From Trypanosoma brucei (taxonomy: Eukaryota): a stretch of 64,000 bases of DNA. Shown piece by piece: positions 39,578-58,827 of the stretch (position 1 is the first letter of the stretch; every line of letters begins with the position of its first letter). The notes below the pieces were generated by a model. The model made no database searches. It worked only from the letters and a program-made list of their open reading frames with translations, and had not been told where the DNA came from. Location: contig CM000208.1 of NCBI GenBank assembly GCA_000002445.1, positions 736,001 to 800,000 on the forward strand, in the 5' to 3' direction. The position numbers and the translations under genes are program-made.

Positions 39578-39638
39578 GAAGGAGCAGGCGTCATTCGCAA
39601 GAGCTCTACCACAATGTTAACAAACATGTAAAACCGCC

Positions 39639-39662
39639 ATTATATATATATATATATATATA
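39639..39662. repeat. (TA)n microsatellite
   Basis: tatatatatatatatatatata run. Confidence 0.9.
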
Positions 39663-39759
39663 AGCAACGAGCGTAACGTTTTTTCTTTAGCTAAAATGGT
39701 CTCAATTTCCTATAAAACGTTTCTTTTTTTTTTTTCACCTCCAAAATATTATCACTACT

Positions 39760-40893
39760 GTGACAAATCATGAAAACTGCTATTATTGTTATTTTTTATT
39801 TATTACTTCTTCATTTCCACTCAAAATAATATTTTTTCATGCACTTTCCATCAGTTGCAACCCTTCCTCACCATGTCACACCAAAACGGCCACCACTCCA
39901 ACAAGGTTTTCTATTCGGGTCACTGTGGAACTACGAATCCGACACAACTGGGGCAGCACGTGGCAGGACCAAGTGAAAGGCAACGCGTGCATTGAAACAG
40001 TGCTTGATGTGGGCCTCTTGATATTTGTCTGCAGAGTTTTGTCTTTGTTCACACTTCGGTGGTGTTGCCTTCATGTGCATGTTCCCCGCATTTGTTACTT
40101 ACTCTCGTCTATTGCCTCTCTTTGGTTTTTAACAATAAGGCAATATCATCAAATACTGTGCAGGGATGGACATAAAAAGGAAACTGAATTTGACCTCGTT
40201 GGGGTGTGGGTTTCATTTGAGAGGGACTGTAGAAGTCTCTCGGTAAGTCAAGGTTGGATCGCACTGCTACGGTACTACCTGCAAGTAACGGAACTCATCC
40301 TGTGCAACCTGCAGAAGGATAAAGAAATTTGGGATAATGCCCACACGTTGTTAAATACTGCATTTACTTTTGTGCAGCTGCGGGAGTACTATGAGTCGAG
40401 ACATAGAAGTGACGAAGGTGCACTCGCTGCTGATATACGAAAGTTCTGCCGGAACAACCTAAACAATTTGGTTCCTAATATACGACGGCTCTCACAGTCC
40501 TTTCCATCCGCACAGGATAGCACGGAGGTTAGGAAGCTGTCCCAACGAGTTGAGTGGAGAGACCTTCTACACAAACTCCCAGAGTCAATTAATTCTGTGT
40601 ATTTTGAAGCAGAAGTGAGGGAAGCCAAGGAGTTTGCCAAAAGGGGCGTCGAGGGCAGTGAAAAGGCTCGGGCAGAGTCATTGAAGAAGCATCTCGAACA
40701 AATTGACAATATGTCGACCGAGGACACTTTGAGGAATATCAATAAAACCATCAACCTCTCTGGTGGGTGCTGGTATAAATGCCCTAAAAGACACCTTTAT
40801 GTTGTCGGAGAGTGTGGCAGCCCTGCAGGGGAAGGAATAGGTGGGGTGGGCCACATCTCATTCCCTGGCAATACATCTGTTGGGAGGTTTTAG
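39760..40893 (+). CDS. Stop-free ORF of uncertain coding status. Its C-terminus is conserved in copy 2 (…GGCWYKCPKRHLYVVGECGSPAGEGIGGVGHISFPGN).
   Basis: 377 codons without a stop on the coding strand, but the track start is a GTG. The only in-frame ATG lies about 60 codons from the end. The 5' part runs through a poly-T tract. Confidence 0.3.
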   Translation: MTNHENCYYCYFLFITSSFPLKIIFFHALSISCNPSSPCHTKTATTPTRFSIRVTVELRIRHNWGSTWQDQVKGNACIETVLDVGLLIFVCRVLSLFTLRWCCLHVHVPRICYLLSSIASLWFLTIRQYHQILCRDGHKKETEFDLVGVWVSFERDCRSLSVSQGWIALLRYYLQVTELILCNLQKDKEIWDNAHTLLNTAFTFVQLREYYESRHRSDEGALAADIRKFCRNNLNNLVPNIRRLSQSFPSAQDSTEVRKLSQRVEWRDLLHKLPESINSVYFEAEVREAKEFAKRGVEGSEKARAESLKKHLEQIDNMSTEDTLRNINKTINLSGGCWYKCPKRHLYVVGECGSPAGEGIGGVGHISFPGNTSVGRF

Positions 40894-41100
40894 GAACCGG
40901 GAGGGTGTCATAGTGGACGAACTATTTCCTGTTGTAATGATAAGTGGAATGGAATATAATGTAATATGTGATGATGTGAAGTATGGAGCATAATTTGAAT
41001 GGAACTAATGATGGAATGGGGTTTTTGTGGATAGGAGTGCATCTCCTGTTGATCATGCAATCCATATCCCTTAATGAGGGCACAGCACTCCTTATTAGTA

Positions 41101-41153
41101 CTTTTACTTTTACTTTGCTTTTGCTTTTTCTTTTTTTGCTTTTGCTTTTGCTT
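41101..41153. repeat. (CTTTTG)n-like pyrimidine microsatellite inside repeat copy 1; identical unit at 57344-57396 in copy 2
   Basis: cttttacttttactttgcttttgctttttctttttttgcttttgcttttgcttg. It lies upstream of Rpn11 and probably doubles as a poly-Y splice signal. Confidence 0.8.
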
Positions 41154-41373
41154 GTTCTGTGAATGCTATCATTGGGTGTCTTATGCCCTTGCTTCTGTCG
41201 TTTGGCTGCTTTTGTTACTTTGTCAGCCACTTACTATATTACCATCCTTTACCTTAATTCTACCTCTCTTGCACACATACCACAACTGGGATACTAAAAG
41301 GGGGGTTATTGAACGGTAACAAACAAAATAACTCGTGCTCTGATTAATTGCATCGCAACGTGGTGGTTTCGAG

Positions 41374-42291
41374 ATGTTCCATCCCCAATTGGTGGCGGGT
41401 GGTGCCAATCGCGCTGCACCGGCAGAGGAGCTACGCGACACAGCCGAGACGGTGCAGATATCGTCTTTGGCATTGCTCAAAATGCTGATGCACGGGCGCG
41501 CTGGGGTGCCGCTCGAGGTAATGGGTTTGATGATTGGTGAGTTGATTGACGACTATACGGTCCGTGTATCTGATGTCTTCTCCATGCCTCAAACGGCCAC
41601 GGGTCAATCCGTTGAAGCTGTGGACCCAGAGTATCAAGTTCATATGTTAGACAAACTCTCCGTGGTGGGTCGACCGGAAAAAGTTGTTGGGTGGTACCAC
41701 AGTCACCCTGGTTTCGGCTGCTGGCTTTCTGGTGAGGATGTAATGACGGCGAGCAGCTATGAGCAACTGACGCCGCGCAGCGTGTCGGTAGTGATCGACC
41801 CTATCCAATCGGTCCGCGGCAAAGTAGTAATTGACGCCTTCCGCACCACGAAGGACCCGCATACGGGGCCGCGAATCATGTTCCAAGAGCCACGACAGAC
41901 AACAAGCAACATCGGGTGGCTGACGCGACCTTCTCCTATTGCTCTCACCCGTGGGTTGGATCGTGACTATTACAGTCTTCCCATTACCTTCCGCAAGAAA
42001 AACCACGAACTTGCGCTACTCCTCAACGTCTACAAGAAGGGTTGGCAGGAGGGTTTCCGATTAGAAAACATGACACGTTTTGATCGCAATACGGTGCGAG
42101 AGAAGATGCGTGCGCTGGCGTCGCTTGCCGTCCAGTCGGAGCGATTCATTGTTCAGGGTCTCGATGAAGATGATGTAGGCAATGTCGGTCGAGCAAATCC
42201 CATTGCGCATCTCCAATCCGAATCGGAGGGCCTAATCAACGCGAGTCTTAACCAATCCATAGGAGCGATGATTAATGGGGTTGTCTTCTGA
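41374..42291 (+). CDS. RPN11: 26S proteasome regulatory subunit Rpn11 / PSMD14 (JAMM/MPN+ deubiquitinase), copy 1, 305 aa
   Basis: Close match to human PSMD14 across the protein: ISSLALLKMLMHGRAGVPLEVMGLM, JAMM motif GWYHSHPGFGCWLSGEDV, VVIDPIQSVRGKVVIDAFR, EPRQTTSNIGWL. The ATG at 41374 was verified. Confidence 0.94.
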   Translation: MFHPQLVAGGANRAAPAEELRDTAETVQISSLALLKMLMHGRAGVPLEVMGLMIGELIDDYTVRVSDVFSMPQTATGQSVEAVDPEYQVHMLDKLSVVGRPEKVVGWYHSHPGFGCWLSGEDVMTASSYEQLTPRSVSVVIDPIQSVRGKVVIDAFRTTKDPHTGPRIMFQEPRQTTSNIGWLTRPSPIALTRGLDRDYYSLPITFRKKNHELALLLNVYKKGWQEGFRLENMTRFDRNTVREKMRALASLAVQSERFIVQGLDEDDVGNVGRANPIAHLQSESEGLINASLNQSIGAMINGVVF

Positions 42292-42749
42292 GGAAACAGG
42301 GTACATTGCGTGTGCTCCAGCTATTACTGACCATACTTTTTATATGCGCTACCGTATTGATTTTTTATCACCCTCTCTATAACGTTTACGGGGTGTTATG
42401 CTCCTTTTCTGCACTCCCGTTTCTGTGACAATGTGGCGTGATTACAATCAGCACAGGATGGCATTTGCTAGTGATGTGGTGTCATCTTCGTGAATGGCAT
42501 GTCATTTGTTTGTGGTGGGGTAATTACTCGTCCTGAATTTCCTAGTGATTCTACAAACATATCTCTGCAATACCTCACTTCCATATTCCTTTAATTGCTC
42601 TAATCCCGGTGATTGCTCGTTGCGATCCCAGTGTCGTGTGCCCAACGCACTTAGTGACACTCAGGACAAGTGGTGAAGGGGGCGAAAAGCTTTTATTCTA
42701 CCGTCTCCGATTGGGTGAAGCAGGGTATCGAAACTATCGTCTACTGCAT

Positions 42750-45700
42750 ATGTATGCAATGCCCGGTAATAGTGGTGATCTACAGTGTGATGATGGTAAG
42801 AAAAGACATATACCGCCATTGTCACTGTTGCTGTCGGGCTACGGGAGCAGTGAAGGCAGGGAACTGGACACATCGTATACACCAAAGCAGTGGCTGTGGT
42901 TCCTCTATGTGACATCATGGGCTCGACCGTTTTTTACTTATGCATCATCTGGTGGTGCGTCCGAAGCGACGGAGGGCAGCAGTGATAACAGAAGTGGGAG
43001 CGCATATTGGGGCAGGTTATCATTTGACGAGCTGTTGAAGTTGTCGGGGTCCCCCATTCCTCCCGCCATGGTGTCGCTTTGGATGGGGCTTTGCATGCCG
43101 ACAGATGACGTCGTGCAAGAGCTGCGAATAATGACGGAGGGGAAGGCAGAAGGTCGGCAGCGCATATATCCTTTCCTGCCTCGTGTTGCAGAGTCAACAT
43201 TTGGTCGTGCTCTGCGATCGTTGGCCGTGCGACAGCATATATCCTCCTGGATGCCTTCTCATGCCGGTGACGTGTGTGCCGCCCTTGACGTTCTGGTGCG
43301 AGACACACTTGAAGTTATTCAGAACTCTGCCGATGTGCGGAAGACTGCGAGAGTACGGTGTGAGGAAAGAGATGCGTCAGGGGAGGAAGCACTTGAGGGG
43401 GCTTTCCGGAGCATGCTTTCTGCATCTACTACCGCACCGAAGGTGGTGGAAGCGACAACTTACCGTCCTCTGTTCGATGTGAAGGCATCCATACCCGAGG
43501 GTGGAACTGCGCAAGTCCTTATCAGGGTGGCTAATGCTGCACGTTTGTTTGCCGCCCTTTCGGTGGAGGCATTTGGTCGTGTCAAATCTGAATGCGCCGT
43601 CCTACTTCTTGCTCATATCAATCAGCGCGATGCACCAGAGCATGTGGATGCCCGTGCGTACGGTGTGGTGACTGGCGTTGTGGAGTATGCTATGGCTTAT
43701 CGGTATTGCAGGGATGATGGTACGGGACGGTGCCCACTGACGTGCGCTGCTTTGCTGTTGCATCGTCTCGTTGAGCTGCAGGGAATTGTGGAAAAGGATA
43801 CTGCTGCTGGTGACAGGTGTATGGGGATGGCTGTATCAGCTTCTCGGTTCGCAAACATGACTGTGGCGTGTATACAGGAACTGCTCTTCTGTGTGGTGGC
43901 AGGTGATACAGTAAGGTGGCACAGGGAACACCAGCCCGATGGTGTCTCTGTCTGTCCCACCGCTGCACGTACCTTAACGCTGCATGAAACAGATTGTCTA
44001 CTACAAGTCTTCATCCCGGCACTGCTCCAGCAGGTGGGGTTTGAGTGGCCCTGGTCAGAGTCACTCCGGCATGCCAAGATGCTTGATCGGGCACGAACGC
44101 AACATATTGTGATGGAAGATGGTGTCAGGTTGGATAGCCGATCGGTGTTTGAGGAGCTTTTGGTCTCAGTTGCGCGACGAACGTACGGACTGCGCCTTCG
44201 AGCCATTCTCCCTCAGAGCTTCGACGTCATTGCGGAAAATATTTTTGTTTCGATCCACGATGTGCCGAATGAGGGTAAAAGCAGTGGAGGGAATCCTGAG
44301 AAGGTGGCTGATAATTCGTCTTCTCGCTTCGCACTACCTCTGTATTACCGTACTGCCGGTGAGGTCTTGCTAGAATATTTTGATCGCTGCGGTCCAAGTG
44401 GAATAACAGCGGAGGAAACAGAGCGGGTGTTGAGACGGGCCACCGATGTGCAGCCTATGGTTGTGCAATTGCAGGCACTGGGAGGGGACACAAACGGTGG
44501 CATTACTGATTGTGTCAGCTACTGTGGTGAGCTTTCTCGCACAGTATATTTTTCCGCGCGTGAGAAGGAGCGTTTACTGCAGAGGTACCGCTGTGAAGTG
44601 CTGCTGGCCTCCCTCGTGGTGTACACGCAACTGAGAACGGTGAGTGTCGTGCAACAGCTCACGCGGCAACTCGCCCCATTGTTTGAGCAGCTGCTTCTGC
44701 CGCTTGCGCATGAGCGTACCCTCAGTCGTTGTCCTGTGATTGCATCCAGGAAGGGGGACGGGGTTGATGACAACGGCACACCGTTGGTGGACTTAACACC
44801 GGAATTCAAGATGCTGGTAGACGAAATTCATTATGAGTTCTACCCTCTGGAATGGGTACCCGAAGCCGTTGATGCCCATATTCGGCAAGAGTGTGGTGTC
44901 CGGGAAAAAGAAGGAGCACCGTACCACGAAGGCGGGAATGGTCCCCCCTGTTTTGCCCAATACTCTCTATTTGCAGCTATTGCTCATCAGTTTGGCCTCG
45001 TTCTGGAGGGGAACCCGCGTGGATTCCGTGGTGGCGACGGCAGCAGCAGTGAAGTACGCACGAAGGCATACCGTTTCTTCACACTGATGTTGCTCAACAA
45101 TCTCGGGGATGCAGTATCTTCCTCATGTGAGTTAGATGGGGCTGCAGCGCTGGCCGCAACGCGGCGTGTTAAGGATTGTCAGGACGGTAGCGAAAATTGT
45201 AAACAACGGCAAGCGGCTGTGAGGCAACGCGGCGGCGCATCGTTTCACAGTGTGGTGAGCGCGTGCGATGTTGTGGTTACTATGACACAGTGCTTACTTC
45301 CCGCACACTTATCATCACACCCACGTATGGCAACCACTGGTTCTATGAGCAACGAGTGGATGCGCCGGGTTGGGGAGTGGACACGATCGGCGTACTCGAA
45401 GTACACCGCGTATCAGCAGCAGGTGCATGGTTTGGATCTTCCTGTGCCGCTCATCTCTCTCTATAATAGTCTCACCTTTGACTCCGTTCCCCTTGCTCGT
45501 GAAACCATCCGCGCCGTACGGAGCCGCCTCCTTGAGAAGATGAGTGTGGTGACTGCGTCGCCGCCAGGGGATGTAGAAACTGCGGGTAAACAGCTCCTGG
45601 AGCAGCACCTTTCCAGCCTAACCGTAACACTCACAGCTGTTGGGCTTCTGCCGCTCTGTGTGCGTGGGGGAAGCCATGTACCCTGCGCAACTCAACTATT

Positions 45701-45764
45701 GTGGGCATCCCCATTTTTCTCCCACGAACTGCTGCACTGCGGTCGATACGAAGTAAGTGTATAG
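42750..45764 (+). CDS. Hypothetical protein of about 1004 aa
   Basis: Long + strand ORF. The track start at 42609 is GTG. The first ATGs are at 42750 and 42759 (MYAMPGNSG...). No domain recognised. Confidence 0.6.
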   Translation: MYAMPGNSGDLQCDDGKKRHIPPLSLLLSGYGSSEGRELDTSYTPKQWLWFLYVTSWARPFFTYASSGGASEATEGSSDNRSGSAYWGRLSFDELLKLSGSPIPPAMVSLWMGLCMPTDDVVQELRIMTEGKAEGRQRIYPFLPRVAESTFGRALRSLAVRQHISSWMPSHAGDVCAALDVLVRDTLEVIQNSADVRKTARVRCEERDASGEEALEGAFRSMLSASTTAPKVVEATTYRPLFDVKASIPEGGTAQVLIRVANAARLFAALSVEAFGRVKSECAVLLLAHINQRDAPEHVDARAYGVVTGVVEYAMAYRYCRDDGTGRCPLTCAALLLHRLVELQGIVEKDTAAGDRCMGMAVSASRFANMTVACIQELLFCVVAGDTVRWHREHQPDGVSVCPTAARTLTLHETDCLLQVFIPALLQQVGFEWPWSESLRHAKMLDRARTQHIVMEDGVRLDSRSVFEELLVSVARRTYGLRLRAILPQSFDVIAENIFVSIHDVPNEGKSSGGNPEKVADNSSSRFALPLYYRTAGEVLLEYFDRCGPSGITAEETERVLRRATDVQPMVVQLQALGGDTNGGITDCVSYCGELSRTVYFSAREKERLLQRYRCEVLLASLVVYTQLRTVSVVQQLTRQLAPLFEQLLLPLAHERTLSRCPVIASRKGDGVDDNGTPLVDLTPEFKMLVDEIHYEFYPLEWVPEAVDAHIRQECGVREKEGAPYHEGGNGPPCFAQYSLFAAIAHQFGLVLEGNPRGFRGGDGSSSEVRTKAYRFFTLMLLNNLGDAVSSSCELDGAAALAATRRVKDCQDGSENCKQRQAAVRQRGGASFHSVVSACDVVVTMTQCLLPAHLSSHPRMATTGSMSNEWMRRVGEWTRSAYSKYTAYQQQVHGLDLPVPLISLYNSLTFDSVPLARETIRAVRSRLLEKMSVVTASPPGDVETAGKQLLEQHLSSLTVTLTAVGLLPLCVRGGSHVPCATQLLWASPFFSHELLHCGRYEVSV

Positions 45765-46121
45765 GAAACACTCCGGAAAGCTTTGCCCGAAGAAACGCTG
45801 TCGTTGCTTTGCTGCTTCTTTAATGAGGGGGTTTACCTGTACAGATCACCTCTCCAGTGGTTCCCTTGCTTCTTTCGTATGCGATTTTGTTGGTGTCGGA
45901 GGTGACGCTCCTGTAATTGTAAACATTTTATTTATCATCATCACCACCCAATGCTGAAATGGTTGCGAGGTAAATTCTACTTACACACCCCTAACCAAAT
46001 TTGCTCCGCTCCACACCCTACCAATAAATGTACGCATATACCCTTTGATCCGTAGCACCAGGCAAGTGATATAGCAGTAAAGTACCTGGATTTCTTTACA
46101 GACGCTTTCTGATCCATTACC

Positions 46122-48479
46122 ATGAACAGTTTCGTGTCTCATTCCTCTCCTCCCCTTTCCGCTGGAATAAATGAGATGTCACTGGCGGAATTGCGGTTAG
46201 GTATTCACGAATTCCTTCGGTCAAGCGGAGCTTTGGGTTCTCTCAAAACACAACTACGTGGTGTCATTACATCAGAGTTGTTAAAGCGGAGACGGACAAA
46301 GGATATTACCGCCGGTGAATGCAACAGTCGGGAGCTGGACGCGGGGGCTGATGTTAGTAATAAGGATGGAGAAGGCGAAAGCGCATGGATACAGCGTCTC
46401 GCCGATGCTATAGTGGAGCAGCATCTGCGGCAAACGGGGCGTGCCTTTTCGTTGGCGATTTTCAGTAGTGAGGCAGATGTAAGCTTCAGAGCAACTGGGG
46501 ACGATGCCCTCGCAGTACTCCTCCATCTTGACAACCCCGTATTGACTACGGCGGGTTGGCGTGCGGGACCGGACTCGACTCCTGCCAATGCGAAGGTTGC
46601 ACATCACCGGAGTAGCAGTTTTTTACAGATTCTTACAGCTGCACACTTGAGGCATGTGGGTGATAGTCGAGGACAGCGACCTAGATACGCTGTCGGTACT
46701 CAAACTGATAGTGACTTTGGTAGTGAGTTTTCGGGGGAATCCGCGAAGCCACCGGTTGAGGTTCGCCTTGCAGCTGTGGATGCAAAGTATGCTCTTTGCT
46801 TCGCCCGTATGGAACATTCGACACGCGAGGAACTGGACCGGCACATGGAAACTTACAGAGAGGAATTGAAGCTGCAGATGGAACAAACATACCAGCAGCG
46901 GCTTCGTGCTTTCGAGCAGCAAAAGCTTTTGGAGGTGCGGCGGGAGGCGGAAGAGCATTTCAGACTACTACTTCAACACAAGATGGAGGAGCAACGGGAA
47001 ATAGAAAGGCTAAGTGCTCAACGTGTGGAGGCTGAACGCGTCCGGCTCTCGCAGGCACGTGAAGATATACAACTACAGCGTGTTGAATTGGAGCGACGGC
47101 AGCGTGAAATACAGCTCCTGTTGGACGAGCGTGATAAGGCGACGGTCGAGATGGAAGGCCGCTTGCACGACGCGAAGCAGCAAATACGCGTCTTAACATC
47201 ACAACTGCAACAGTTTGAGGAGCTCTGTGCCTCCCGACTCGCTGAGGCTGAAGCAGCACGTGACCGTGAGATGCGGCGGGTGGGAGATATTCGGCGGCTT
47301 CAAGCAGAGCATGTGGCAGAGTTACAACTAAAGGATGAGGAAATTTGTCGTTTGCGTTTCCGACTTAAATCACTGGCAGCTTCCAACACCGGCGGCAGTT
47401 GGCATCACAACGCCCTGAACACCACGGAGAATGGGGTTATTATGGTGCACGAAGTTCCCTCAGGAGCGACCCGACAACATAAGCAAGGAAGCCGACAGCA
47501 GGCGTCCCATGAAGCAACGTACCTTGCGTCAACACCTGTTCCGCGTGAGGCAGCATGGCAGTCCATTTGGCACTCAACTGATGTTGTGGGACCCACAGAA
47601 GTCGTAACAGCACCGTGGAGGGGGGAAGAGGGAGTAGTTGAACGGCGCTCACATTTGGTGGATCCTTCCTTGCATTCCAGTGATGTTCACCGGCAGGGAA
47701 AGCGTGGTAGTAGGGACACTAACGATGCGGCCATCGAAAGTCAAGAAAGGAGCATGAGCATTCAACCTCGAAGAGCCGCAACCACGGAAAGTGGCAGCAC
47801 TGTAACCACCACTAGCTCCAGAGTGGGGTCTCGCGTGCTTCTTGCTGATGCTGCTGTCGCCAAGTCAGCACACGAATCTGCAACTGCGGAAAAGCAGGAA
47901 ACTCCGGTGCCGCAGGAGTGCGGATCTTCAGAGAGATCAGGCCGGGCAGGAAATGATGAGAAGGATGAGGTGGCGCATAGCAAGAGCTCGTCAGGCAGCA
48001 CCAAGGTGACCAGGAGCAACACAACGGGAGAAATTAACGGTGAAGTGGACCGTTCGCACCCACCTGTCGTGCAGGGGTCGCACTCGGAGGGTCCCCTCTC
48101 CCTTAATGCATCTGAGGGCAATACCGCCATTGCTTCCTCTTCCAAAATGTCATCTGTGCGTTCACACAAGAGCCAGTCTGTCACAACGCCACGTGCAGCC
48201 GCGTCCCACGCGCTAAGTGATTTGGTGGGACGAATTAACGCTGAGGAGGAGGACAAACGGAAAGAAATTGAGAAAGAGGAAGAGACGAACCGAGGTGGCA
48301 TTAAGTGGGCCGCCACCTCTCAGCACAACTTGCTGGTGCAACGCCAAACAGCGATGGAAGAGTTTTCTGGGCGTGAGGAGAGTAATGTGGTTTTGTTGGA
48401 CCGCACGACCATATCCGATGATGGCAGTGAGGATGATATTTTATATCGAAAAGGAGATGACAGTGATGACTCCATATGA
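46122..48479 (+). CDS. Coiled-coil protein of 785 aa with an N-terminal FOP-dimerisation/LisH-like motif
   Basis: Verified ATG at 46122. MSLAELRLGIHEFLRSSGALGSLKTQLRGVI resembles, by eye, the FOP N-terminal dimerisation pattern LRDLLVQTLENSGVLNRIKAELRAAVF. A long heptad-rich segment follows (residues about 230-420: EELDRHMETYREELKLQMEQTYQQRLRAFEQQKLLEVRREAEEH...), then a Ser/Thr-rich tail. Confidence 0.6.
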   Translation: MNSFVSHSSPPLSAGINEMSLAELRLGIHEFLRSSGALGSLKTQLRGVITSELLKRRRTKDITAGECNSRELDAGADVSNKDGEGESAWIQRLADAIVEQHLRQTGRAFSLAIFSSEADVSFRATGDDALAVLLHLDNPVLTTAGWRAGPDSTPANAKVAHHRSSSFLQILTAAHLRHVGDSRGQRPRYAVGTQTDSDFGSEFSGESAKPPVEVRLAAVDAKYALCFARMEHSTREELDRHMETYREELKLQMEQTYQQRLRAFEQQKLLEVRREAEEHFRLLLQHKMEEQREIERLSAQRVEAERVRLSQAREDIQLQRVELERRQREIQLLLDERDKATVEMEGRLHDAKQQIRVLTSQLQQFEELCASRLAEAEAARDREMRRVGDIRRLQAEHVAELQLKDEEICRLRFRLKSLAASNTGGSWHHNALNTTENGVIMVHEVPSGATRQHKQGSRQQASHEATYLASTPVPREAAWQSIWHSTDVVGPTEVVTAPWRGEEGVVERRSHLVDPSLHSSDVHRQGKRGSRDTNDAAIESQERSMSIQPRRAATTESGSTVTTTSSRVGSRVLLADAAVAKSAHESATAEKQETPVPQECGSSERSGRAGNDEKDEVAHSKSSSGSTKVTRSNTTGEINGEVDRSHPPVVQGSHSEGPLSLNASEGNTAIASSSKMSSVRSHKSQSVTTPRAAASHALSDLVGRINAEEEDKRKEIEKEEETNRGGIKWAATSQHNLLVQRQTAMEEFSGREESNVVLLDRTTISDDGSEDDILYRKGDDSDDSI

Positions 48480-52400: not shown

Positions 52401-53112
52401 CTCGGGCCCCATGCTGTCGGTTGTCGCTGCCACCACCCGTCACGTTGATACACTGAGCGCGCAGGCGGTGGCAAATAGGGTGGACGATGTTGATTTAAAG
52501 GGAGTGACACTTGAATTATTGCGAGCTGAGGACAGGACTAGTGTCAAAGTGCACCCCGCCGTAAGCTGGAACACTGGGGCAGAAAACAGTGCCGAGAAGG
52601 ATGGTGTTGGAGGCGAACAAACTGATTTAAACGATGTACCTGTCACTGAGGTCATGCGTCACCTGCAGCCGAGAGATGACAGTCCGGAGAACAGGAAACA
52701 AACACCTCCTCGTCTCATGCCGCACTATGTGGTGACCCACGCATCCAGCACGGCTACTGCAACCCGAGAGGAGCGGTCGGGTGCCCCGGTGGGTAGGCGA
52801 CCAGCGGTTCAACAAGCTGCTGATCCTGCGCCCCTGCGACGGGCAGTGGTGGGAGGAGGGAGAGATGGAAGAGGTAGAGGTAGAGCAGTTGCTTTGGCTG
52901 AACCACAGCGTCCTACCGCTGCGCGACCAGGGGCGGCACTGCTGCCAAGTGTGAATGATGTGGGACCGGAACCACGAAACAATACAGTCACAGCGACAAT
53001 GGTGTCAGGAGAAGCGGGTACCGCACATCGCCATCATCTCCCAGTAGGCACAGAATTCCTGTCCCTGCGGCAACCGGCACTCGCCAATGCCCAGTCTAAA
53101 CCGAAAGACTAA
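49441..53112 (+). CDS. Coiled-coil hypothetical protein of about 1223 aa
   Basis: The track ORF starts at a GTG (49207). The first ATG after the pyrimidine-rich leader is at 49441 (MPLPSTLPSPAPPSPP...). An extended coiled-coil region follows (LQYRVDRLEGMLDVANTEVGRLRRTLEQREEG...KQALDAAESHIQMLDKRLAQAERAAALA). Confidence 0.6.
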   Translation: MPLPSTLPSPAPPSPPVATSKLDLDINGLQKILQQIDESFHASDDDVDRRLRLQHLERQQVALQQLCDAALQQQDGQAVPPALDNSTDVRPITYKVLDTDVVSTPRSIDAFNPSHNTRETLQSIARKTETCLRSPHAPLVAPPRLLSPSRVTSMPHMGAGTTAQGEVKTPDHAGVATAKIFPLRSPELPPTYHDGAAVQEDRDLVESFLGDGRAKAQHPYAVEEGGVHRVRGSTGGWQQRGIHTLRGVRSCRLMAPRMSSGTDRTASPEHFDIGEDEKLIRQLIGRNETRVKGSTNRNNHCFQTAPTKGENVAAHSCGTEGQIHRHSTVPSASGRQPAQGDAHPTSTSMAHNPHKEDCAARNGHWVRGKSVKELTQKMECLARHLVKCMRDRLQLQYRVDRLEGMLDVANTEVGRLRRTLEQREEGTLTESAWRATINAKERELRVCEDEIRRLRILVEQQVTRQGCGLARQNEAAALQQAKADLECMMQELGVAHMRRREMEEEFERTKQALDAAESHIQMLDKRLAQAERAAALARVWDVSGDLNVQVGDVPSAPASTALQKGLPEAKLKLQANVGNVDSWTHDAQREIARLTAHIENLALKHAESDRHAELRLSNARKESDVLRRQCNELRVEVRSHEVQIETLRRDRVAVGLREGQLRQQLLDLRDDAVLLADLLQATTKNAKGMLQILGTDDVEHRQSKAAVERFVAGVLCDFDALGRFFGALQCIDIGESRCQMEERVSVSEATAARRDFVLKAVEDAMERPSQGFGPATLSSSKPPCVETLQAAHESHRPSVAADCILATGTRPPEDRKPPTTSSTPSPAHPVLRWVADQNISLEGVTAPDEGNQPQNGAKMAESRASVMEGCTGRNLEQQSSNDFYALSGTNTDTEPKISLFPTTSWPSPQGARRGSPPSRLSDQAESHVLIQDSARSRISTGISFLSKAPDGSGTVASEGIPHLQQPLSHSMVSSQSHMVEETSDERSSGPMLSVVAATTRHVDTLSAQAVANRVDDVDLKGVTLELLRAEDRTSVKVHPAVSWNTGAENSAEKDGVGGEQTDLNDVPVTEVMRHLQPRDDSPENRKQTPPRLMPHYVVTHASSTATATREERSGAPVGRRPAVQQAADPAPLRRAVVGGGRDGRGRGRAVALAEPQRPTAARPGAALLPSVNDVGPEPRNNTVTATMVSGEAGTAHRHHLPVGTEFLSLRQPALANAQSKPKD

Positions 53113-53474
53113 AGTAGCCGTGTAGCGCTCGCTGTATTCGGTGTGTTTCCGTGGGCAATGCCATCCGGGTATGTATGGCCAAGAGAATAGAGTTGTTATC
53201 CGGACAGTCACCTATATTTTTATGTTCCGTTTATCATAACACTGTTTTCTGTTATTGCTTGCGTACTCGTTAGTCCGCTGTGTGCGGTCCCTGCAAACCG
53301 TGTACGTGTTGAAGTGGAGCAAGGAAGGGAGCTGGTCTCATTTCCATGCGGCACGGCGGGCGAAACAGAGTTTATTCCACTGCTACCATCTGTGTTTTTT
53401 CTTCATGTATTCAAATTCTTGTTCTTTAAAGGTGAGACCTTCGCAGTGGCAGCTGGCTGTGCAAGGCGCACTCC

Positions 53475-55796
53475 ATGTCGGGTCGGCGTGTCACAGTGGA
53501 GAACACGGCATCACCATCGCCTCATTCGAGTGCAAGCCAACAACCACTGCAAGATATCATATCATCACCGGAGCGGCAATGCCACTCATTTCATGGATAT
53601 TATGGTGTGGGAGGTCAGTGTGGTACGCACTATCCATTGGTGGAGGCGACGGCGATGAACTTTAGTGCCGCGTTAGGTGAAGGTACTTCTAGCAGCAATG
53701 CCGTCTCCCCCGAGCAGGACCCACTACTAGAGGGACTGCGTGAGAAGGAAAGGCAGTTCGACGCTCGAGTTGCCGCACTGGACAAAATGTTGATATGCGC
53801 ACAACAGGGCTGCACCCAGCGGGATAGTCTGATTGACAGATTGAACACTGAAGTGGGTCGATTGCGGAAGCAACTTCAGGAATCGAAGGGCACAGGAAGT
53901 AAGCCCAAGGAGATGCGGGGAAGTGCCCTCGAAGGAGACACTACAGCTCTCGAGGAGGCTCGGGCAAAAATTGAGGAGATGAGTAACAGGTTGCGTGAAA
54001 AGAGCCGCCGCTTAATGGCACTGGAAAGGCAATTGGGGTCGCGTGGCGTCGACACCGAAGAGGGTGCAGTGGTTGGAAGAACGGCACCACGAAAGAACCT
54101 AGTCGAAGAGCAAGGACAGCAGAAGCGAGCTCGCTACGCCGCCACTCTACGGTCGTTGCAAAAGGAAGTTGGTCTGTTGGAACAGAAGTATCGTGTGATG
54201 ATGAAGGAGAAAGAGTCTCTCGCGGAGGAGAACCAAAGCCTTCGCCGGAGGGTTGATCGCATTCAGGAGGACGCAGAGGCGGAGCTAGTGGGAGCTGTGA
54301 GAGCGACACACAAGGCGTTGGGTGAAAAAAAAGATCTTGAAACACAGGTCATGGCGACGCGGTTGAGTATGGCGAGACTCCTGCATGTTCTCAGCGAGGT
54401 TCCAGAGATGAGCCGGTATCTGCGCGTTGACGGAGTGACCGGAGACCTCTTGTTCATCGGTTACGCGGCTTTACCGTTGAAAGAGACTGCAGATGGAAGT
54501 GAAGTTGGACGATCTCACCGTGGCGGCTTATCCTTGTCTGCCATGGGCACTGGTGTTGACGACGGAATTTACGGGGGAAGCGCAAAAGCGCAGTCGCACA
54601 ACATTTATCTGAACGGGAAGTGGTGCAACCGTCTACGCGAGATCGTTGACGATGAGAATTGTTTCTTTCGCCGTGCAAAGGTTCATACAGGGGAATTGGA
54701 GGATGTGACGCACTCTCTTGTGGGTGAAAGTGTTCCACGAGTACCGCTCCCAAGCGATGTGCTACAAGGGCGTCAACGCGACAGGGACTTCTGGATTCCG
54801 TATGGTGTTTTCGTGGAAGCGCAGAAGTTCAAAAATCGCTATTTTCCTTCCATGAATGTCGAGTGTTTCTATCCGTTTCTCTTTTCCATCAATGTTCTAT
54901 GGAACAAGCGTATGATGCAGCGGGTGACAACCGCAACAAAGCGCGTTAGTGAGCAACAGGAGAGGCGGCGGAAGCAAATGCTGAGATGTATGAAAAGGGG
55001 AGGGGAACACTATCTTGGATCTCTCTCTCCCTCTACTGGCAGTTTCTCCCCATCCCCGTCAGTAGTGGCACTGCGACGCCAGTTGCAACTTCTGCGTCGT
55101 GAGGTACAGCGGCGCGTTATAGGGCGAAGCAGTTTAGACTTGTTTCACCGTTACGACCTGCTGGTAAGACGCACTCTGCAATGCTTGGAGAAAACGCACA
55201 GGGGTTATATTACACCCTTGAACCAAGCACAACAGAGTGGCACAGCTGGGTCCGTGTCCTCAGACACTGACTTTACTGGTGAACATGTCAATGTGTCGCC
55301 GCTGTGGCGTGACGAATCACCCGAAGAAATGAAGATGAATAACGGCAGCGATGTCAGTGGAAGTAAAGAAAGTCATTACCGCTGTTCCCCATCGATACCA
55401 TTGGCGGGGTTGCTGAACATCAGCCAGCGTGCGTCAACCCATGTCCTTGCATCTTGCAGGCACTTGCGAGAACTCCTCGAGGCCCTGCGCAAGAAACACC
55501 GGTGGTTCTCCCTCAGTGACCATCACTATGAAGGAGATGAGGGTGTGCGGTTAGCCTGTGGGGCAGAACGCACATGCGTGCCCGTATCTACCCTTCACCA
55601 CCTTATTGAAGGTGTGGTAGACTTTGTGGGGGAGGTACAGCAAGAGGTACTGAAAGCGCACAATGCTGTGGAAAAATACTGCACCCACCAGAGGGATGGA
55701 AATGACGTGGTGCTTTCTGCACTCAACAACCAAAGAGCTTCCCGTATTATCGAAGGAGTTTGGAACGACATTCCGTGTGAGGGGGTCAGTGAGTAG
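53475..55796 (+). CDS. Coiled-coil hypothetical protein of 773 aa
   Basis: Verified ATG at 53475. The N-terminal half is heptad-rich (DARVAALDKMLICAQQG...LIDRLNTEVGRLRKQLQESKG...EEARAKIEEMSNRLREKSRRLMALERQLG...LQKEVGLLEQKYRVMMKEKESLAEENQSLRRRVDRIQED). Confidence 0.6.
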   Translation: MSGRRVTVENTASPSPHSSASQQPLQDIISSPERQCHSFHGYYGVGGQCGTHYPLVEATAMNFSAALGEGTSSSNAVSPEQDPLLEGLREKERQFDARVAALDKMLICAQQGCTQRDSLIDRLNTEVGRLRKQLQESKGTGSKPKEMRGSALEGDTTALEEARAKIEEMSNRLREKSRRLMALERQLGSRGVDTEEGAVVGRTAPRKNLVEEQGQQKRARYAATLRSLQKEVGLLEQKYRVMMKEKESLAEENQSLRRRVDRIQEDAEAELVGAVRATHKALGEKKDLETQVMATRLSMARLLHVLSEVPEMSRYLRVDGVTGDLLFIGYAALPLKETADGSEVGRSHRGGLSLSAMGTGVDDGIYGGSAKAQSHNIYLNGKWCNRLREIVDDENCFFRRAKVHTGELEDVTHSLVGESVPRVPLPSDVLQGRQRDRDFWIPYGVFVEAQKFKNRYFPSMNVECFYPFLFSINVLWNKRMMQRVTTATKRVSEQQERRRKQMLRCMKRGGEHYLGSLSPSTGSFSPSPSVVALRRQLQLLRREVQRRVIGRSSLDLFHRYDLLVRRTLQCLEKTHRGYITPLNQAQQSGTAGSVSSDTDFTGEHVNVSPLWRDESPEEMKMNNGSDVSGSKESHYRCSPSIPLAGLLNISQRASTHVLASCRHLRELLEALRKKHRWFSLSDHHYEGDEGVRLACGAERTCVPVSTLHHLIEGVVDFVGEVQQEVLKAHNAVEKYCTHQRDGNDVVLSALNNQRASRIIEGVWNDIPCEGVSE

Positions 55797-56080
55797 CACC
55801 AATGGAGTCGGAACCGCATTTGGCGGTGGTATATCCTGAAGTGATATTGTGGTGCATGGATGAAATGGTGATGAGGACATTGCGTGCCCCAGCGTTCTCC
55901 CTCCGGCACCATTTTCAGTTTTACAGTAAACACATACACCTCTATTGTATTTTCCTCTACGTTGGAACAAGCATGAGTGCTCAGACCATGCACCATCAGC
56001 TGCGGCGTTGCCTGAATCCCACGCGGCCTTCATGAGGTAAATCCTCACATTATGGAGGACGTATCGAGAAAACGAGCTAA

Positions 56081-57136
56081 GTGTCATTTTCCATCAGTTG
56101 CAACCCTTCCTCACCATGTCACACCAAAACGGCCACCACTCCAACAAGGTTTTCTATTCGGGTCACTGTGGAACTACGAATCCGACACAACTGGGGCAGC
56201 ACGTGGCAGGACCAAGTGAAAGGCAACGCGTGCATTGAAACAGTGCTTGATGTGGGCCTCTTGATATTTGTCTGCAGAGTTTTGTCTTTGTTCACACTTC
56301 GGTGGTGTTGCCTTCATGTGCATGTTCCCCGCATTTGTTACTTACTCTCGTCTATTGCCTCTCTTTGGTTTTTAACAATAAGGCAATATCATCAAATACT
56401 GTGCAGGGATGGACATAAAAAGGAAACTGAATTTGACCTCGTTGGGGTGTGGGTTTCATTTGAGAGGGACTGTAGAAGTCTCTCGGTAAGTCAAGGTTGG
56501 ATCGCACTGCTACGGTACTACCTGCAAGTAACGGAACTCATCCTGTGCAACCTGCAGAAGGATAAAGAAATTTGGGATAATGCCCACACGTTGTTAAATA
56601 CTGCATTTACTTTTGTGCAGCTGCGGGAGTACTATGAGTCGAGACATAGAAGTGACGAAGGTGCACTCGCTGCTGATATACGAAAGTTCTGCCGGAACAA
56701 CCTAAACAATTTGGTTCCTAATATACGACGGCTCTCACAGTCCTTTCCATCCGCACAGGATAGCACGGAGGTTAGGAAGCTGTCCCAACGAGTTGAGTGG
56801 AGAGACCTTCTACACAAACTCCCAGAGTCAATTAATTCTGTGTATTTTGAAGCAGAAGTGAGGGAAACCAAGGAGTTTGCCAAAAGGGGCGTCGAGGGCA
56901 GTGAAAAGGCTCGGGCAGAGTCATTGAAGAAGCATCTCGAACAAATTGACAATATGTCGACCGAGGACACTTTGAGGAATATCAATAAAACCATCAACTT
57001 CTCTGGTGGGTGCTGGTATAAATGCCCTAAAAGACACTTTTATGTTGTCGGAGAGTGTGGCAGCCCTGCAGGGGAAGGAATAGGTGGGGTGGGCCACATC
57101 TCATTCCCTGGCAATACATCTGTTGGGAGGTTTTAG
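56081..57136 (+). CDS. Copy 2 of the stop-free ORF of uncertain coding status (see 39760-40893)
   Basis: Same ORF as copy 1 with three amino-acid differences. The track start is GTG and the same ATG problem applies. Confidence 0.3.
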   Translation: MSFSISCNPSSPCHTKTATTPTRFSIRVTVELRIRHNWGSTWQDQVKGNACIETVLDVGLLIFVCRVLSLFTLRWCCLHVHVPRICYLLSSIASLWFLTIRQYHQILCRDGHKKETEFDLVGVWVSFERDCRSLSVSQGWIALLRYYLQVTELILCNLQKDKEIWDNAHTLLNTAFTFVQLREYYESRHRSDEGALAADIRKFCRNNLNNLVPNIRRLSQSFPSAQDSTEVRKLSQRVEWRDLLHKLPESINSVYFEAEVRETKEFAKRGVEGSEKARAESLKKHLEQIDNMSTEDTLRNINKTINFSGGCWYKCPKRHFYVVGECGSPAGEGIGGVGHISFPGNTSVGRF

Positions 57137-58827
57137 GAACCGGGAGGGTGTCATAGTGGACGAACTATTTCCTGTTGTAATGATAAGTGGAATGGAATAT
57201 AATGTAATATGTGATGATGTGAAGTATGGAGCATAATTTGAATGGAACTAATGATGGAATGGGGTTTTTGTGGATAGGAGTGCATCTCCTGTTGATCATG
57301 CAATCCATATCCCTTAATGAGGGCACAGCACTCCTTATTAGTACTTTTACTTTTACTTTGCTTTTGCTTTTTCTTTTTTTGCTTTTGCTTTTGCTTGTTC
57401 TGTGAATGCTATCATTGGGTGTCTTATGCCCTTGCTTCTGTCGTTTGGCTGCTTTTGTTACTTTGTCAGCCACTTACTATATTACCATCCTTTACCTTAA
57501 TTCTACCTCTCTTGCACACATACCACAACTGGGATACTAAAAGGGGGGTTATTGAACGGTAACAAACAAAATAACTCGTGCTCTGATTAATTGCATCGCA
57601 ACGTGGTGGTTTCGAGATGTTCCATCCCCAATTGGTGGCGGGTGGTGCCAATCGCGCTGCACCGGCAGAGGAGCTACGCGACACAGCCGAGACGGTGCAG
57701 ATATCGTCTTTGGCATTGCTCAAAATGCTGATGCACGGGCGCGCTGGGGTGCCGCTCGAGGTAATGGGTTTGATGATTGGTGAGTTGATTGACGACTATA
57801 CGGTCCGTGTATCTGATGTCTTCTCCATGCCTCAAACGGCCACGGGTCAATCCGTTGAAGCTGTGGACCCAGAGTATCAAGTTCATATGTTAGACAAACT
57901 CTCCGTGGTGGGTCGACCGGAAAAAGTTGTTGGGTGGTACCACAGTCACCCTGGTTTCGGCTGCTGGCTTTCTGGTGAGGATGTAATGACGGCGAGCAGC
58001 TATGAGCAACTGACGCCGCGCAGCGTGTCGGTAGTGATCGACCCTATCCAATCGGTCCGCGGCAAAGTAGTAATTGACGCCTTCCGCACCACGAAGGACC
58101 CGCATACGGGGCCGCGAATCATGTTCCAAGAGCCACGACAGACAACAAGCAACATCGGGTGGCTGACGCGACCTTCTCCTATTGCTCTCACCCGTGGGTT
58201 GGATCGTGACTATTACAGTCTTCCCATTACCTTCCGCAAGAAAAACCACGAACTTGCGCTACTCCTCAACGTCTACAAGAAGGGTTGGCAGGAGGGTTTC
58301 CGATTAGAAAACATGACACGTTTTGACCGCAATACGGTGCGAGAGAAGATGCGTGCGCTGGCGTCGCTTGCCGTCCAGTCGGAGCGATTCATTGTTCAGG
58401 GTCTCGATGAAGATGATGTAGGCAATGTCGGTCGAGCAAATCCCATTGCGCATCTCCAATCCGAATCGGAGGGCCTAATCAACGCGAGTCTTAACCAATC
58501 CATAGGAGCGATGATTAATGGGGTTGTCTTCTGAGGAAACAGGGTACATTGCGTGTGCTCCAGCTATTACTGACCATACTTTTTATATGCGCTACCGTGT
58601 TGATTTTTTATCACCCTCTCTATAACGTTTACGGGGTGTTATGCTCCTTTTCTGCACTCCCGTTTCTGTGACAATGTGGCGTGATTACAATCAGCGCAGG
58701 ATGGCATTTGCTAGTGATGTGGTGTCATCTTCGTGAATGGCATGTCATTTGTTTGTGGTGGGGTAATTACTCGTCCTGAATTTCCTAGTGATTCTACAAA
58801 CATATCTCTGCAATACCCCTGTGGCTT
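56088..58827 (+). repeat. Copy 2 of the 2.74-kb direct repeat (partner at 39845-42584)
   Basis: See copy 1. Differences I noted in copy 2 include A>T and two L>F substitutions in the upstream ORF. There is one synonymous T>C in Rpn11 (58320s) and two 3'-flank SNPs (accgtGttga, cagcGcagg). Confidence 0.9.
57617..58534 (+). CDS. RPN11: 26S proteasome regulatory subunit Rpn11 / PSMD14, copy 2, 305 aa (protein identical to copy 1)
   Basis: Identical translation to 41374-42291, including the JAMM motif HSHPGFGCWLSG. I found one synonymous difference. Confidence 0.93.
   Translation: MFHPQLVAGGANRAAPAEELRDTAETVQISSLALLKMLMHGRAGVPLEVMGLMIGELIDDYTVRVSDVFSMPQTATGQSVEAVDPEYQVHMLDKLSVVGRPEKVVGWYHSHPGFGCWLSGEDVMTASSYEQLTPRSVSVVIDPIQSVRGKVVIDAFRTTKDPHTGPRIMFQEPRQTTSNIGWLTRPSPIALTRGLDRDYYSLPITFRKKNHELALLLNVYKKGWQEGFRLENMTRFDRNTVREKMRALASLAVQSERFIVQGLDEDDVGNVGRANPIAHLQSESEGLINASLNQSIGAMINGVVF

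What the first reader, a model, noticed from the sequence alone, without database searches (positions are those of the whole stretch)
39845..58827. Two near-identical 2.74-kb direct repeats, each with an Rpn11 gene, bracket 13.5 kb of unique genes
Segments 39845-42584 and 56088-58827 correspond base-for-base at a constant offset of 16243 nt. I counted fewer than about 10 mismatches over 2740 nt. Each carries a full JAMM deubiquitinase gene (Rpn11/PSMD14) plus a 350-codon upstream ORF and a (CTTTTG)n tract. Rpn11 is a single essential proteasome-lid subunit in most eukaryotes, so two intact, expressed-looking copies 16 kb apart is unusual. The arrangement is A-X-A, not a simple tandem A-B-A-B: sequence after the second copy differs from sequence after the first. 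Long, highly identical direct repeats of this kind are substrates for homologous-recombination-mediated deletion or amplification of the intervening 13.5 kb. That interval holds four genes, including three coiled-coil proteins. The very high identity suggests either a recent duplication or ongoing gene conversion.
Basis: seen in the sequence. Interest (0 to 1): 0.6.

Follow-up and report, generated by a model that had tools for sequence, protein, structure and literature searches.

The report
Two converting Rpn11 copies, Trypanosoma brucei
This is a real 2.73-kb duplication of the proteasome Rpn11 gene on a Trypanosoma brucei chromosome, with both gene copies already annotated; the duplication is old but gene conversion keeps the copies near-identical, which is an ordinary kind of trypanosome genome feature.

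Summary
Windows 39845-42574 and 56088-58817 are direct repeats of 2,730 bp at an offset of 16,243 nt, with 6 mismatches.

The sequence is Trypanosoma brucei. The same A-X-A layout, with identical junctions, is present in T. b. gambiense DAL972 and in the Lister 427 assembly. GenBank already lists two RPN11 proteins per genome, so this is not an assembly artefact and not new.

Copy 2 sits at the ancestral site: T. vivax, T. theileri and T. grayi have g773-Rpn11-g135. Copy 1 was inserted between a 115-aa gene and CBP110. A T. congolense contig carries the last 44 Rpn11 codons directly upstream of CBP110, so the duplication probably predates that species split.

Within T. brucei, 24 strain-specific SNPs and indels are shared by both copies of a strain, and none is fixed between the copies. 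This is concerted evolution by gene conversion, not recent duplication.

The "350-codon ORF" is not a gene. Its last 240 codons are a decaying relic of a ZNFX1-like helicase, with 12 nonsynonymous changes to 1 synonymous, stop codons in some strains, and a broken RZ finger. The (CTTTTG)n tract is the polypyrimidine tract upstream of the Rpn11 trans-splice site.

Interest is low to moderate.

The parts
39845..42574 (+). Repeat copy 1, the derived copy, inserted between the 115-aa gene and CBP110
   Evidence: The outgroups T. theileri (L013) and T. grayi (L014) have GUF1-g115-CBP110 with no Rpn11 in between.
56088..58817 (+). Repeat copy 2, at the ancestral Rpn11 position (g773 - Rpn11 - g135)
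   Evidence: Synteny with T. theileri L011, T. vivax L009/L010 and T. grayi L016.
40174..40893 (+). Relic of the last ~240 codons of a ZNFX1-like helicase, copy 1. It has a degenerate RZ zinc finger with an 8-codon deletion that removes CPEC, and CPNGH has become CPKRH.
   Evidence: Pfam RZ finger matched only over profile positions 8-32 of 54. phmmer and tblastn to T. congolense P0134 (about 48-50% identity) and T. grayi P0135 (about 35%). 12 nonsynonymous: 1 synonymous variable sites, and a stop at 40630 in DAL972.
56417..57136 (+). The same ZNFX1-like relic, copy 2
39845..40173 (+). Left ~330 nt of the repeat (copy 2: 56088-56416). The frame is open but shows no detectable homology to ZNFX1, so the truncation junction of the helicase gene lies inside the repeat.
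   Evidence: Local alignment score 34 against a shuffle mean of 35. TGC->TGA at 40161 in T. equiperdum.
41101..41167 (+). (CTTTTG)n-like polypyrimidine tract upstream of the Rpn11 splice acceptor (copy 2: 57344-57410). Lister 427 has a 21-bp deletion here in both copies.
41299..41300 (+). AG trans-splice acceptor of Rpn11 (copy 2: 57542-57543). The 5'UTR is 41301-41373.
   Evidence: Logan contig L007 starts with the spliced-leader 3' end TACTATATTG joined to GGGGGTTATTG.
41374..42291 (+). Rpn11/PSMD14 CDS, copy 1 (305 aa)
   Evidence: Pfam JAB 8e-31. PDB PSMD14/RPN11 4.5e-92 versus CSN5 1e-33. [quoted passage not shown]
57617..58534 (+). Rpn11/PSMD14 CDS, copy 2. The protein is identical; there is one synonymous difference (42084/58327).
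42292..42574 (+). 283 nt of shared 3' flank / proximal 3'UTR (copy 2: 58535-58817)
42750..45764 (+). CBP110 (nuclear cap-binding complex subunit), first gene of the unique interval
   Evidence: Pfam PF19042, 1360 bits. 1004-aa annotated product.
46122..55796 (+). Three further unique-interval genes: 785 aa (46122-48479), 1223/1301 aa (49441 or 49207-53112) and 773 aa (53475-55796). All have E/R/Q/L-rich coiled-coil-like stretches.
   Evidence: Orthologues are present in T. congolense, T. grayi and T. theileri.
39230..39577 (+). Conserved 115-aa gene, left neighbour of copy 1
   Evidence: tblastn 50-57% to the T. grayi and T. theileri orthologues.
58943..59350 (+). Conserved 135-aa gene, right neighbour of copy 2
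   Evidence: tblastn 59-63% to T. grayi, T. theileri and T. vivax.

Best explanation
The window is Trypanosoma brucei; assignment to chromosome 10 of the TREU927 reference is inferred. A 2.73-kb cassette was copied from its ancestral place downstream of the 773-aa gene to a site 16.2 kb upstream in the same + strand gene cluster, between a 115-aa gene and CBP110. The cassette consists of about 330 nt of unidentified sequence, the dead 3' end of a ZNFX1-like helicase gene, the polypyrimidine tract and AG acceptor for trans-splicing, the Rpn11 CDS, and 283 nt of 3'UTR.

An Rpn11 copy at the new site probably already existed in the common ancestor of T. brucei and T. congolense. Since then, recurrent non-allelic gene conversion has kept the two copies almost identical, including in non-coding and pseudogene DNA. 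Purifying selection keeps the Rpn11 protein unchanged.

Shown: the duplication is real; the direction of the original move; homogenisation continued after the T. brucei strains diverged; the upstream ORF is a pseudogene relic; copy 1 is transcribed and trans-spliced.

Inferred: the benefit is doubled Rpn11 dosage in an organism without gene-specific promoters. Also inferred: the left kilobase of the repeat (the relic with its truncation junction) was spread between the copies after the helicase gene died in the T. brucei lineage.
For: 1. Real in independent assemblies. An identical Rpn11 protein occurs at two places 16.2 kb apart in DAL972 FN554973.1 and Lister 427 CM010681.1, with identical left and right junctions. 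There are two GenBank proteins per genome: EAN77723/EAN77728 and CBH15288/CBH15294. The T. equiperdum draft contigs break at the edges of copy 2.

2. The ancestral site is copy 2. T. theileri, T. vivax and T. grayi have g1301-g773-(ZNFX1)-Rpn11-g135 and have GUF1-g115-CBP110 without Rpn11.

3. Age. T. congolense contig CAEQ01002324 begins with Rpn11 codons 262-305 (42 of 44 aa identical, 74% nt identity) and a stop codon. CBP110 follows 417 nt later. The interval proteins of the two species are only 42-55% identical.

4. Concerted evolution. Differences between the two copies within a strain, inside the repeat, are 6 (window), 0 (DAL972) and 1 (Lister 427). Differences between strains are 13-22 (that range counts the boundary column 39844). 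24 variable sites or indel events, including a 21-bp and a 1-bp indel, are the same in both copies of each strain. None is fixed between copies across strains. Between-strain divergence of the repeat (0.7-0.8%) is in the range of the flanking DNA (0.26-0.55% in the unique interval, about 0.8-0.9% mismatches upstream at 36000-39844, about 1.6% in the gene-poor region downstream).

5. Selection. Rpn11 CDS has 5 synonymous: 0 nonsynonymous variable sites. The relic has 1: 12, including premature stops.

6. Expression. The SL-bearing contig L007 runs from the acceptor at 41299/41300 through Rpn11 into the copy-1-specific flank.
Against: - The T. congolense evidence is 136 nt at the end of one draft contig. 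I could not recover T. congolense copy 2.
- The T. congolense ZNFX1-like gene is followed by 2.4 kb without Rpn11.
- The relic looks recently inactivated: its frame is still open in the window, and it is not significantly faster-evolving than the T. congolense gene (25 vs 17 unique changes). Yet its truncation junction is shared by both copies. So the present left boundary cannot be as old as the T. congolense split, and an extra event is needed.
- Consensus assemblies can artificially homogenise repeats. I did not check how each assembly was built or polished, so I cannot say how exposed each one is to this.
- A dosage benefit is untested. Expression of copy 2 specifically was not shown.
Confidence: 0.8

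Rival explanations
1. The duplication is recent and confined to the T. brucei lineage. The high identity simply reflects youth, and T. congolense acquired its Rpn11 upstream of CBP110 independently.
For: Both copies share a ZNFX1 relic that seems to have been inactivated only recently, with its truncation junction inside the repeat. Identity is 99.8% even in non-coding DNA.
Against: It requires two independent insertions of Rpn11 into the same intergenic region. It does not remove the need for gene conversion: 24 strain-specific variants are present in both copies although all strains share identical junctions.
Confidence: 0.1
2. Assembly artefact: a single Rpn11 locus was falsely duplicated.
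For: None found, beyond the general risk attached to near-identical repeats.
Against: Both copies have different unique flanks on both sides. They are present in three assemblies besides the draft contig breaks. Six copy-specific differences exist in the window. The RNA contig L007 links Rpn11 to the copy-1 flank. Outgroup synteny supports the copy-2 site.
Confidence: 0.01
3. The two copies are functionally differentiated through different distal 3'UTRs or neighbouring processing signals (for example stage-specific expression), rather than being a simple dosage pair.
For: Homology stops 283 nt after the stop codon. At least some copy-1 transcripts extend beyond that point. Only one locus ID (Tb927.10.2980) appears in a polysome-enrichment list (PMC3694164).
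Against: The proteins are identical. The 5'UTR, splice signals and proximal 3'UTR are identical and are being homogenised. No expression data that distinguish the copies were available.
Confidence: 0.15

Closest known systems
Duplicated genes under concerted evolution in T. brucei tandem arrays (Jackson 2007, BMC Evol Biol 7:54, PMC1855330)
   Same: Duplicates sit inside what reads as one polycistronic unit, are homogenised by gene conversion including flanking UTR/intergenic sequence, and are interpreted as a way to raise gene dosage where individual promoters are absent.
   Different: This is a two-copy dispersed pair separated by 13.5 kb and four unrelated genes, not a head-to-tail array. 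That paper does not mention proteasome genes (0 occurrences) and reports that physically separated duplicates usually diverge and keep orthology. This pair does not.
Rpn11 / PSMD14, the JAMM deubiquitinase of the 19S proteasome lid
   Same: 305-aa MPN/JAB protein with the intact HSHPGFGCWLSGED (HxHx7Sx2D) motif, aligning end to end with human PSMD14 (E 4.5e-92) and yeast Rpn11.
   Different: The protein itself shows nothing unusual. Only the copy number differs from the other trypanosomatids examined here: one locus was seen in each of T. theileri, T. grayi and Leishmania martiniquensis.
ZNFX1 / NFX1-type SF1 helicases with a C-terminal RZ zinc finger
   Same: The upstream ORF aligns with the C-terminal 240 residues of the T. 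grayi 2095-aa protein (AAA_11/AAA_12 helicase + RZ finger). That protein occupies exactly this position, between g773 and Rpn11.
   Different: In T. brucei only the tail is left. It has no start codon, no helicase domain and no NFX1 fingers. The RZ finger lacks two zinc ligands, and the sequence evolves neutrally with stops in some strains.
Low-copy repeats that mediate non-allelic homologous recombination (segmental duplications)
   Same: Long, >99% identical direct repeats bracket unique genes. Non-allelic gene conversion between them is demonstrated here.
   Different: No deletion or amplification product of the interval was seen in the three assemblies. The interval contains CBP110, which makes homozygous deletion unlikely to survive (inference).

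Membership tests
Rpn11/PSMD14 (proteasome lid JAMM deubiquitinase) | MPN/JAB domain | tested here: met
   PF01398 JAB E 8e-31, residues 23-134.
Rpn11/PSMD14 (proteasome lid JAMM deubiquitinase) | Intact JAMM metal-binding motif HxHx7Sx2D | tested here: met
   WYHSHPGFGCWLSGED at residues ~107-122, identical to human PSMD14 in the alignment. The sequence is shown.
Rpn11/PSMD14 (proteasome lid JAMM deubiquitinase) | Closer to Rpn11 than to the paralogous MPN+ proteins (CSN5, BRCC36) | tested here: met
   PDB: PSMD14/RPN11 311 bits over residues 20-305, versus CSN5 119 bits and BRCC36 46 bits.
Rpn11/PSMD14 (proteasome lid JAMM deubiquitinase) | Incorporation into the 19S lid and deubiquitinase activity | not testable with these tools
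ZNFX1-like SF1 helicase with RZ finger (for the upstream ORF) | SF1 helicase core (AAA_11/AAA_12) | tested here: not met
   Present in T. grayi P0135. tblastn of P0135 against the window finds only residues 1847-2085.
ZNFX1-like SF1 helicase with RZ finger (for the upstream ORF) | Complete RZ zinc finger | tested here: not met
   Pfam match covers only profile positions 8-32 of 54. The alignment shows an 8-residue deletion removing SGRCPECG, and CPNGH changed to CPKRH.
ZNFX1-like SF1 helicase with RZ finger (for the upstream ORF) | Translatable gene under purifying selection | tested here: not met
   No ATG before codon ~290. 12 nonsynonymous: 1 synonymous sites. Stop at 40630 in both DAL972 copies and at 40161 in T. 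equiperdum. No homologue in the annotated-protein search.
Duplicates under concerted evolution (non-allelic gene conversion) | Paralogues within a genome are more alike than orthologous copies between genomes | tested here: met
   Within-strain differences 6, 0 and 1, against 13-22 between strains. 24 variable sites group by strain and 0 group by copy.
Duplicates under concerted evolution (non-allelic gene conversion) | The duplication predates the divergence of the genomes compared | tested here: met
   Identical junction sequences in the window, DAL972, Lister 427 and T. equiperdum. Rpn11 3' end upstream of CBP110 in T. congolense.
Duplicates under concerted evolution (non-allelic gene conversion) | Individual conversion tracts resolved statistically (GENECONV-type test) or in single molecules | not tested
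   Only 6 informative differences within the window. No read data.
Tandem gene array (sense of Jackson 2007) | Head-to-tail adjacent copies | tested here: not met
   The copies are separated by 13.5 kb holding four unrelated genes.

The most novel reading that the evidence does not exclude
The ancestral duplication may have carried only a dead 3' fragment of the neighbouring ZNFX1-like helicase gene along with Rpn11. In the T. brucei lineage, a gap-repair or template-switch event that used this partial copy as donor then overwrote the parental locus. That event copied about 330 nt of foreign flank and deleted about 5.5 kb of helicase coding sequence. On this reading a functional gene was killed by conversion from its own truncated duplicate, and the repeat grew leftwards in the same event. 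This would explain why a recently inactivated relic and its truncation junction are shared by two copies whose duplication is much older.
Probability: 0.2. Interest if true: 0.4.

Novelty: already known. Interest (0 to 1): 0.22.

Why it matters
There are three practical consequences:
- Reads from the two RPN11 loci (one is Tb927.10.2980; the other ID was not confirmed) cannot be assigned uniquely.
- RNAi or knock-out designs must target both copies.
- Short-read assemblies break or collapse here, as the T. equiperdum and T. congolense drafts do.

Biologically, it is a clean small example that non-allelic gene conversion in T. brucei can homogenise duplicates 16 kb apart across four unrelated genes, including 1.8 kb of non-coding and pseudogene DNA. 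It also records the lineage-specific death of a ZNFX1-like helicase gene. None of this changes current views of trypanosome genome evolution.

Tried and rejected
1. A word-indexed protein search with the upstream ORF found nothing. Only the exhaustive HMMER search revealed the ZNFX1-like relatives.

2. Low-stringency blastn compared the T. brucei intergenic pieces (the left 330 nt of the repeat, the g115 and g773 downstream flanks, the Rpn11 3' flank) with the corresponding regions of T. grayi, T. theileri, T. vivax and T. congolense. It gave only low-complexity noise. I therefore could not tell which copy donated the left end of the repeat.

3. I tried to fetch the end of the T. congolense interval contig through its 765-aa protein.

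4. The CBP110 homologue P0127 turned out to be an SL-bearing mRNA contig without genomic context.

5. Leishmania gave no ZNFX1 or g135 synteny.

6. Rfam and tRNA scans of the window were empty.

7. Literature searches found no paper describing the RPN11 duplication or a trypanosome ZNFX1.

8. A retroposed-mRNA origin was considered and rejected. The repeat extends 1.45 kb upstream of the spliced-leader acceptor and carries no SL or poly(A).

9. Clustering of the six within-window differences into two groups was considered as evidence for conversion tracts. It was dropped because, on a back-of-envelope estimate (no calculation was run), a largest gap of about 1.3 kb did not look unusual for six random sites.

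Full report
OBSERVATION

At a constant offset of 16,243 nt the window matches itself from 39845 to 42574 (copy 2: 56088-58817). There are six mismatches in 2,730 nt. Identity falls to background on both sides.

That overshoot accounts for six of the 12 mismatches in the stated span.

Self-BLAST finds no other long repeat in the 64 kb. Each copy holds three things:
- an identical 305-aa JAB/MPN protein;
- a (CTTTTG)n-like tract;
- a long open frame upstream.

All sizeable ORFs from 188 to 59350 are on the + strand. I read this as both copies and the interval lying in one polycistronic unit.

ORGANISM, AND WHETHER THE DUPLICATION IS REAL

- Pfam identifies the gene after copy 1 as CBP110, the kinetoplastid nuclear cap-binding subunit (1360 bits).
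- The Rpn11 protein is found, identical, at two places about 16.2 kb apart in T. b. gambiense DAL972 (FN554973.1) and T. brucei Lister 427 (CM010681.1). It is found once on a T. equiperdum contig.
- GenBank carries two accessions per genome: EAN77723/EAN77728 and CBH15288/CBH15294. [quoted passage not shown]
- One locus is cited in the literature as Tb927.10.2980 (PMC3694164).
- Left and right junction sequences are the same in all these assemblies.
- By the coordinates, the T. equiperdum 129-kb contig should end about 30 nt into copy 2. The next contig starts 32 nt before the end of copy 2. This is the usual signature of a repeat that a short-read assembly could not place.

The duplication is therefore genuine, and its two genes are already annotated.

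WHICH COPY IS THE ORIGINAL

T. theileri, T. vivax and T. grayi each show g1301-g773-...-Rpn11-g135, which is the context of copy 2. T. theileri and T. grayi show GUF1-g115-CBP110 with no Rpn11 between. T. conorhini shows none in the 625 nt before CBP110.

Copy 2 is therefore at the ancestral site, and copy 1 is the insertion.

AGE

The T. congolense contig that carries CBP110 and the three interval genes begins with the last 44 codons of Rpn11 (42 of 44 identical; 74% nucleotide identity) and its stop codon. The CBP110 start lies 417 nt further on.

So an Rpn11 copy already sat upstream of CBP110 before T. brucei and T. congolense separated. The interval proteins of these two species are only 42-55% identical, and their intergenic DNA cannot be aligned.

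The caveats are that this rests on 136 nt at a draft-contig end, and that I could not recover the second T. congolense copy.

CONCERTED EVOLUTION

I aligned seven copies: the window, DAL972 and Lister 427 (two each), and T. equiperdum copy 1.
- Inside the repeat, the copies within a strain differ at 6, 0 and 1 positions.
- Copies from different strains differ at 13-22 positions (this range counts the boundary column 39844).
- 24 variable sites or indel events are the same in both copies of each strain. They include a 21-bp deletion in the (CTTTTG)n tract of Lister 427 and a 1-bp insertion in DAL972.
- No site inside the repeat is fixed between copy 1 and copy 2 across strains.
- T. equiperdum copy 1 is closer to the window's copy 2 (4 differences) than to its copy 1 (9 differences).
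- Divergence of the repeat between strains (0.7-0.8%) is in the range of the unique DNA around it.

All strains share the same junctions, so the duplication predates them. The pattern therefore requires transfer of sequence between the copies after the strains diverged, which is non-allelic gene conversion.

One reservation is that consensus assemblies can homogenise repeats. I did not check how each assembly was built or polished. The window itself keeps six differences between its copies.

THE UPSTREAM 'ORF'

It has no ATG until about codon 290, and the word-indexed protein search found nothing. The exhaustive search found two relatives:
- a T. congolense protein (50% identity over the last 240 residues);
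- a 2,095-aa T. grayi protein (36% identity).

The T. grayi protein has SF1-helicase domains and a C-terminal RZ zinc finger. It lies exactly between g773 and Rpn11.

In T. brucei only 40174-40893 (copy 2: 56417-57136) is homologous. The 112 codons upstream score no better than shuffled sequence.

The RZ finger has lost eight residues, including the CPEC zinc ligands.

Among T. brucei-group copies:
- The relic shows 12 nonsynonymous changes to 1 synonymous. One is a GAG->TAG stop in both DAL972 copies.
- The open frame just upstream of the relic carries a TGA in T. equiperdum.
- Rpn11 shows 0 nonsynonymous to 5 synonymous.

It is a pseudogene relic, not a gene.

A relative-rate comparison (25 vs 17 unique changes, not significant) and the still-open frame suggest that it died recently. 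Its truncation junction nevertheless lies inside the repeat in both copies. So the left kilobase of the repeat must have been spread between the copies after the T. congolense split. I could not determine the direction.

EXPRESSION SIGNALS

A Logan contig (L007) begins with the last 10 nt of the spliced leader, joined immediately after the AG at 41299-41300. It continues through Rpn11 into the copy-1-specific flank up to 42965.

The (CTTTTG)n tract and the pyrimidine-rich 190 nt that follow it are therefore the polypyrimidine tract of the Rpn11 trans-splice site. Copy 1 is transcribed and trans-spliced.

The repeat includes 283 nt beyond the stop codon. Further downstream the two 3' regions differ. 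Expression of copy 2 specifically could not be shown.

MECHANISM AND COMPARISON WITH WHAT IS KNOWN

The cassette carries what a trypanosome gene needs: a splice signal, the CDS and the proximal 3'UTR. Duplication should therefore double Rpn11 output from the unit.

This follows the accepted logic for duplicated genes in T. brucei (PMC1855330). That study covers head-to-tail arrays, does not mention proteasome genes, and notes that physically separated duplicates usually diverge. Here two copies separated by four genes remain homogenised.

The protein is an orthodox Rpn11: the JAMM motif is intact, and PDB PSMD14 scores 311 bits against 119 for CSN5.

The direct repeats could in principle delete or amplify the interval. 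No such form was seen. The interval encodes CBP110, a subunit of the nuclear cap-binding complex. The title of the 2005 paper on that complex (Li & Tschudi, cited in PMC11735809) calls its novel subunits essential; I did not read the paper.

VERDICT

Gene conversion, not recency, is the cause of the identity.

The feature is real but ordinary in kind, and its genes are already annotated. What this analysis adds:
- the direction and probable age of the duplication;
- the demonstration of ongoing homogenisation;
- the identification of the ORF as a ZNFX1-like pseudogene relic.

Noticed in passing
L016:10001-16288 (T. grayi); L015:1-2304 (T. congolense); window 40174-40893: A ZNFX1-like SF1 helicase with an RZ finger sits between g773 and Rpn11 in T. 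grayi. In T. congolense its frame is open for at least 767 codons. In T. brucei it is reduced to a 240-codon relic. At this position it is absent in T. theileri and in the T. vivax contig, and tblastn finds no trace of it in the Leishmania martiniquensis locus. Loss is therefore lineage-specific and repeated.
   Followed up: partly
L015:2305-4736: The 2.4 kb downstream of the T. congolense ZNFX1-like gene contains neither Rpn11 nor g135 and has no convincing ORF. The local gene order in T. congolense may therefore differ, or an unidentified insertion is present.
   Followed up: no
L014:15704-18347 and L013:16098-18707 vs window 48480-49206: T. grayi and T. theileri have two extra genes (414/421 aa and 169/178 aa) between the g785 and g1301 orthologues. 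tblastn finds no trace of them in the T. brucei window or the T. congolense contig.
   Followed up: partly
window 59400-64000: This stretch after g135 is gene-poor: no ORF exceeds 170 aa, and there is no tRNA or Rfam hit. GC skew turns negative there. Between-strain divergence is about 2%, against 0.3-0.5% in the coding interval.
   Followed up: partly
L006:1-3006 (Logan ERR7929157): This contig joins a TCP1/Cpn60 chaperonin gene head-to-head to Rpn11, 42 nt upstream of its ATG (window 41332). It is most likely a chimeric transcriptome assembly, not a third genomic context.
   Followed up: partly
window 35950, 42609, 49207: The mechanical ORF list starts GUF1, CBP110 and the 1301-aa gene at upstream GTG codons. 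The public annotations use downstream ATGs (768, 1004 and 1223 aa), so ORF lengths in the first-stage note are overestimates.
   Followed up: yes
L012 (T. congolense CAEQ01002324, 14,349 nt): The contig begins inside Rpn11 and ends about 730 nt after the g773 orthologue. These are the positions where the two repeat copies would lie. This is suggestive, not proof, that T. congolense also has two near-identical copies that broke the assembly.
   Followed up: partly
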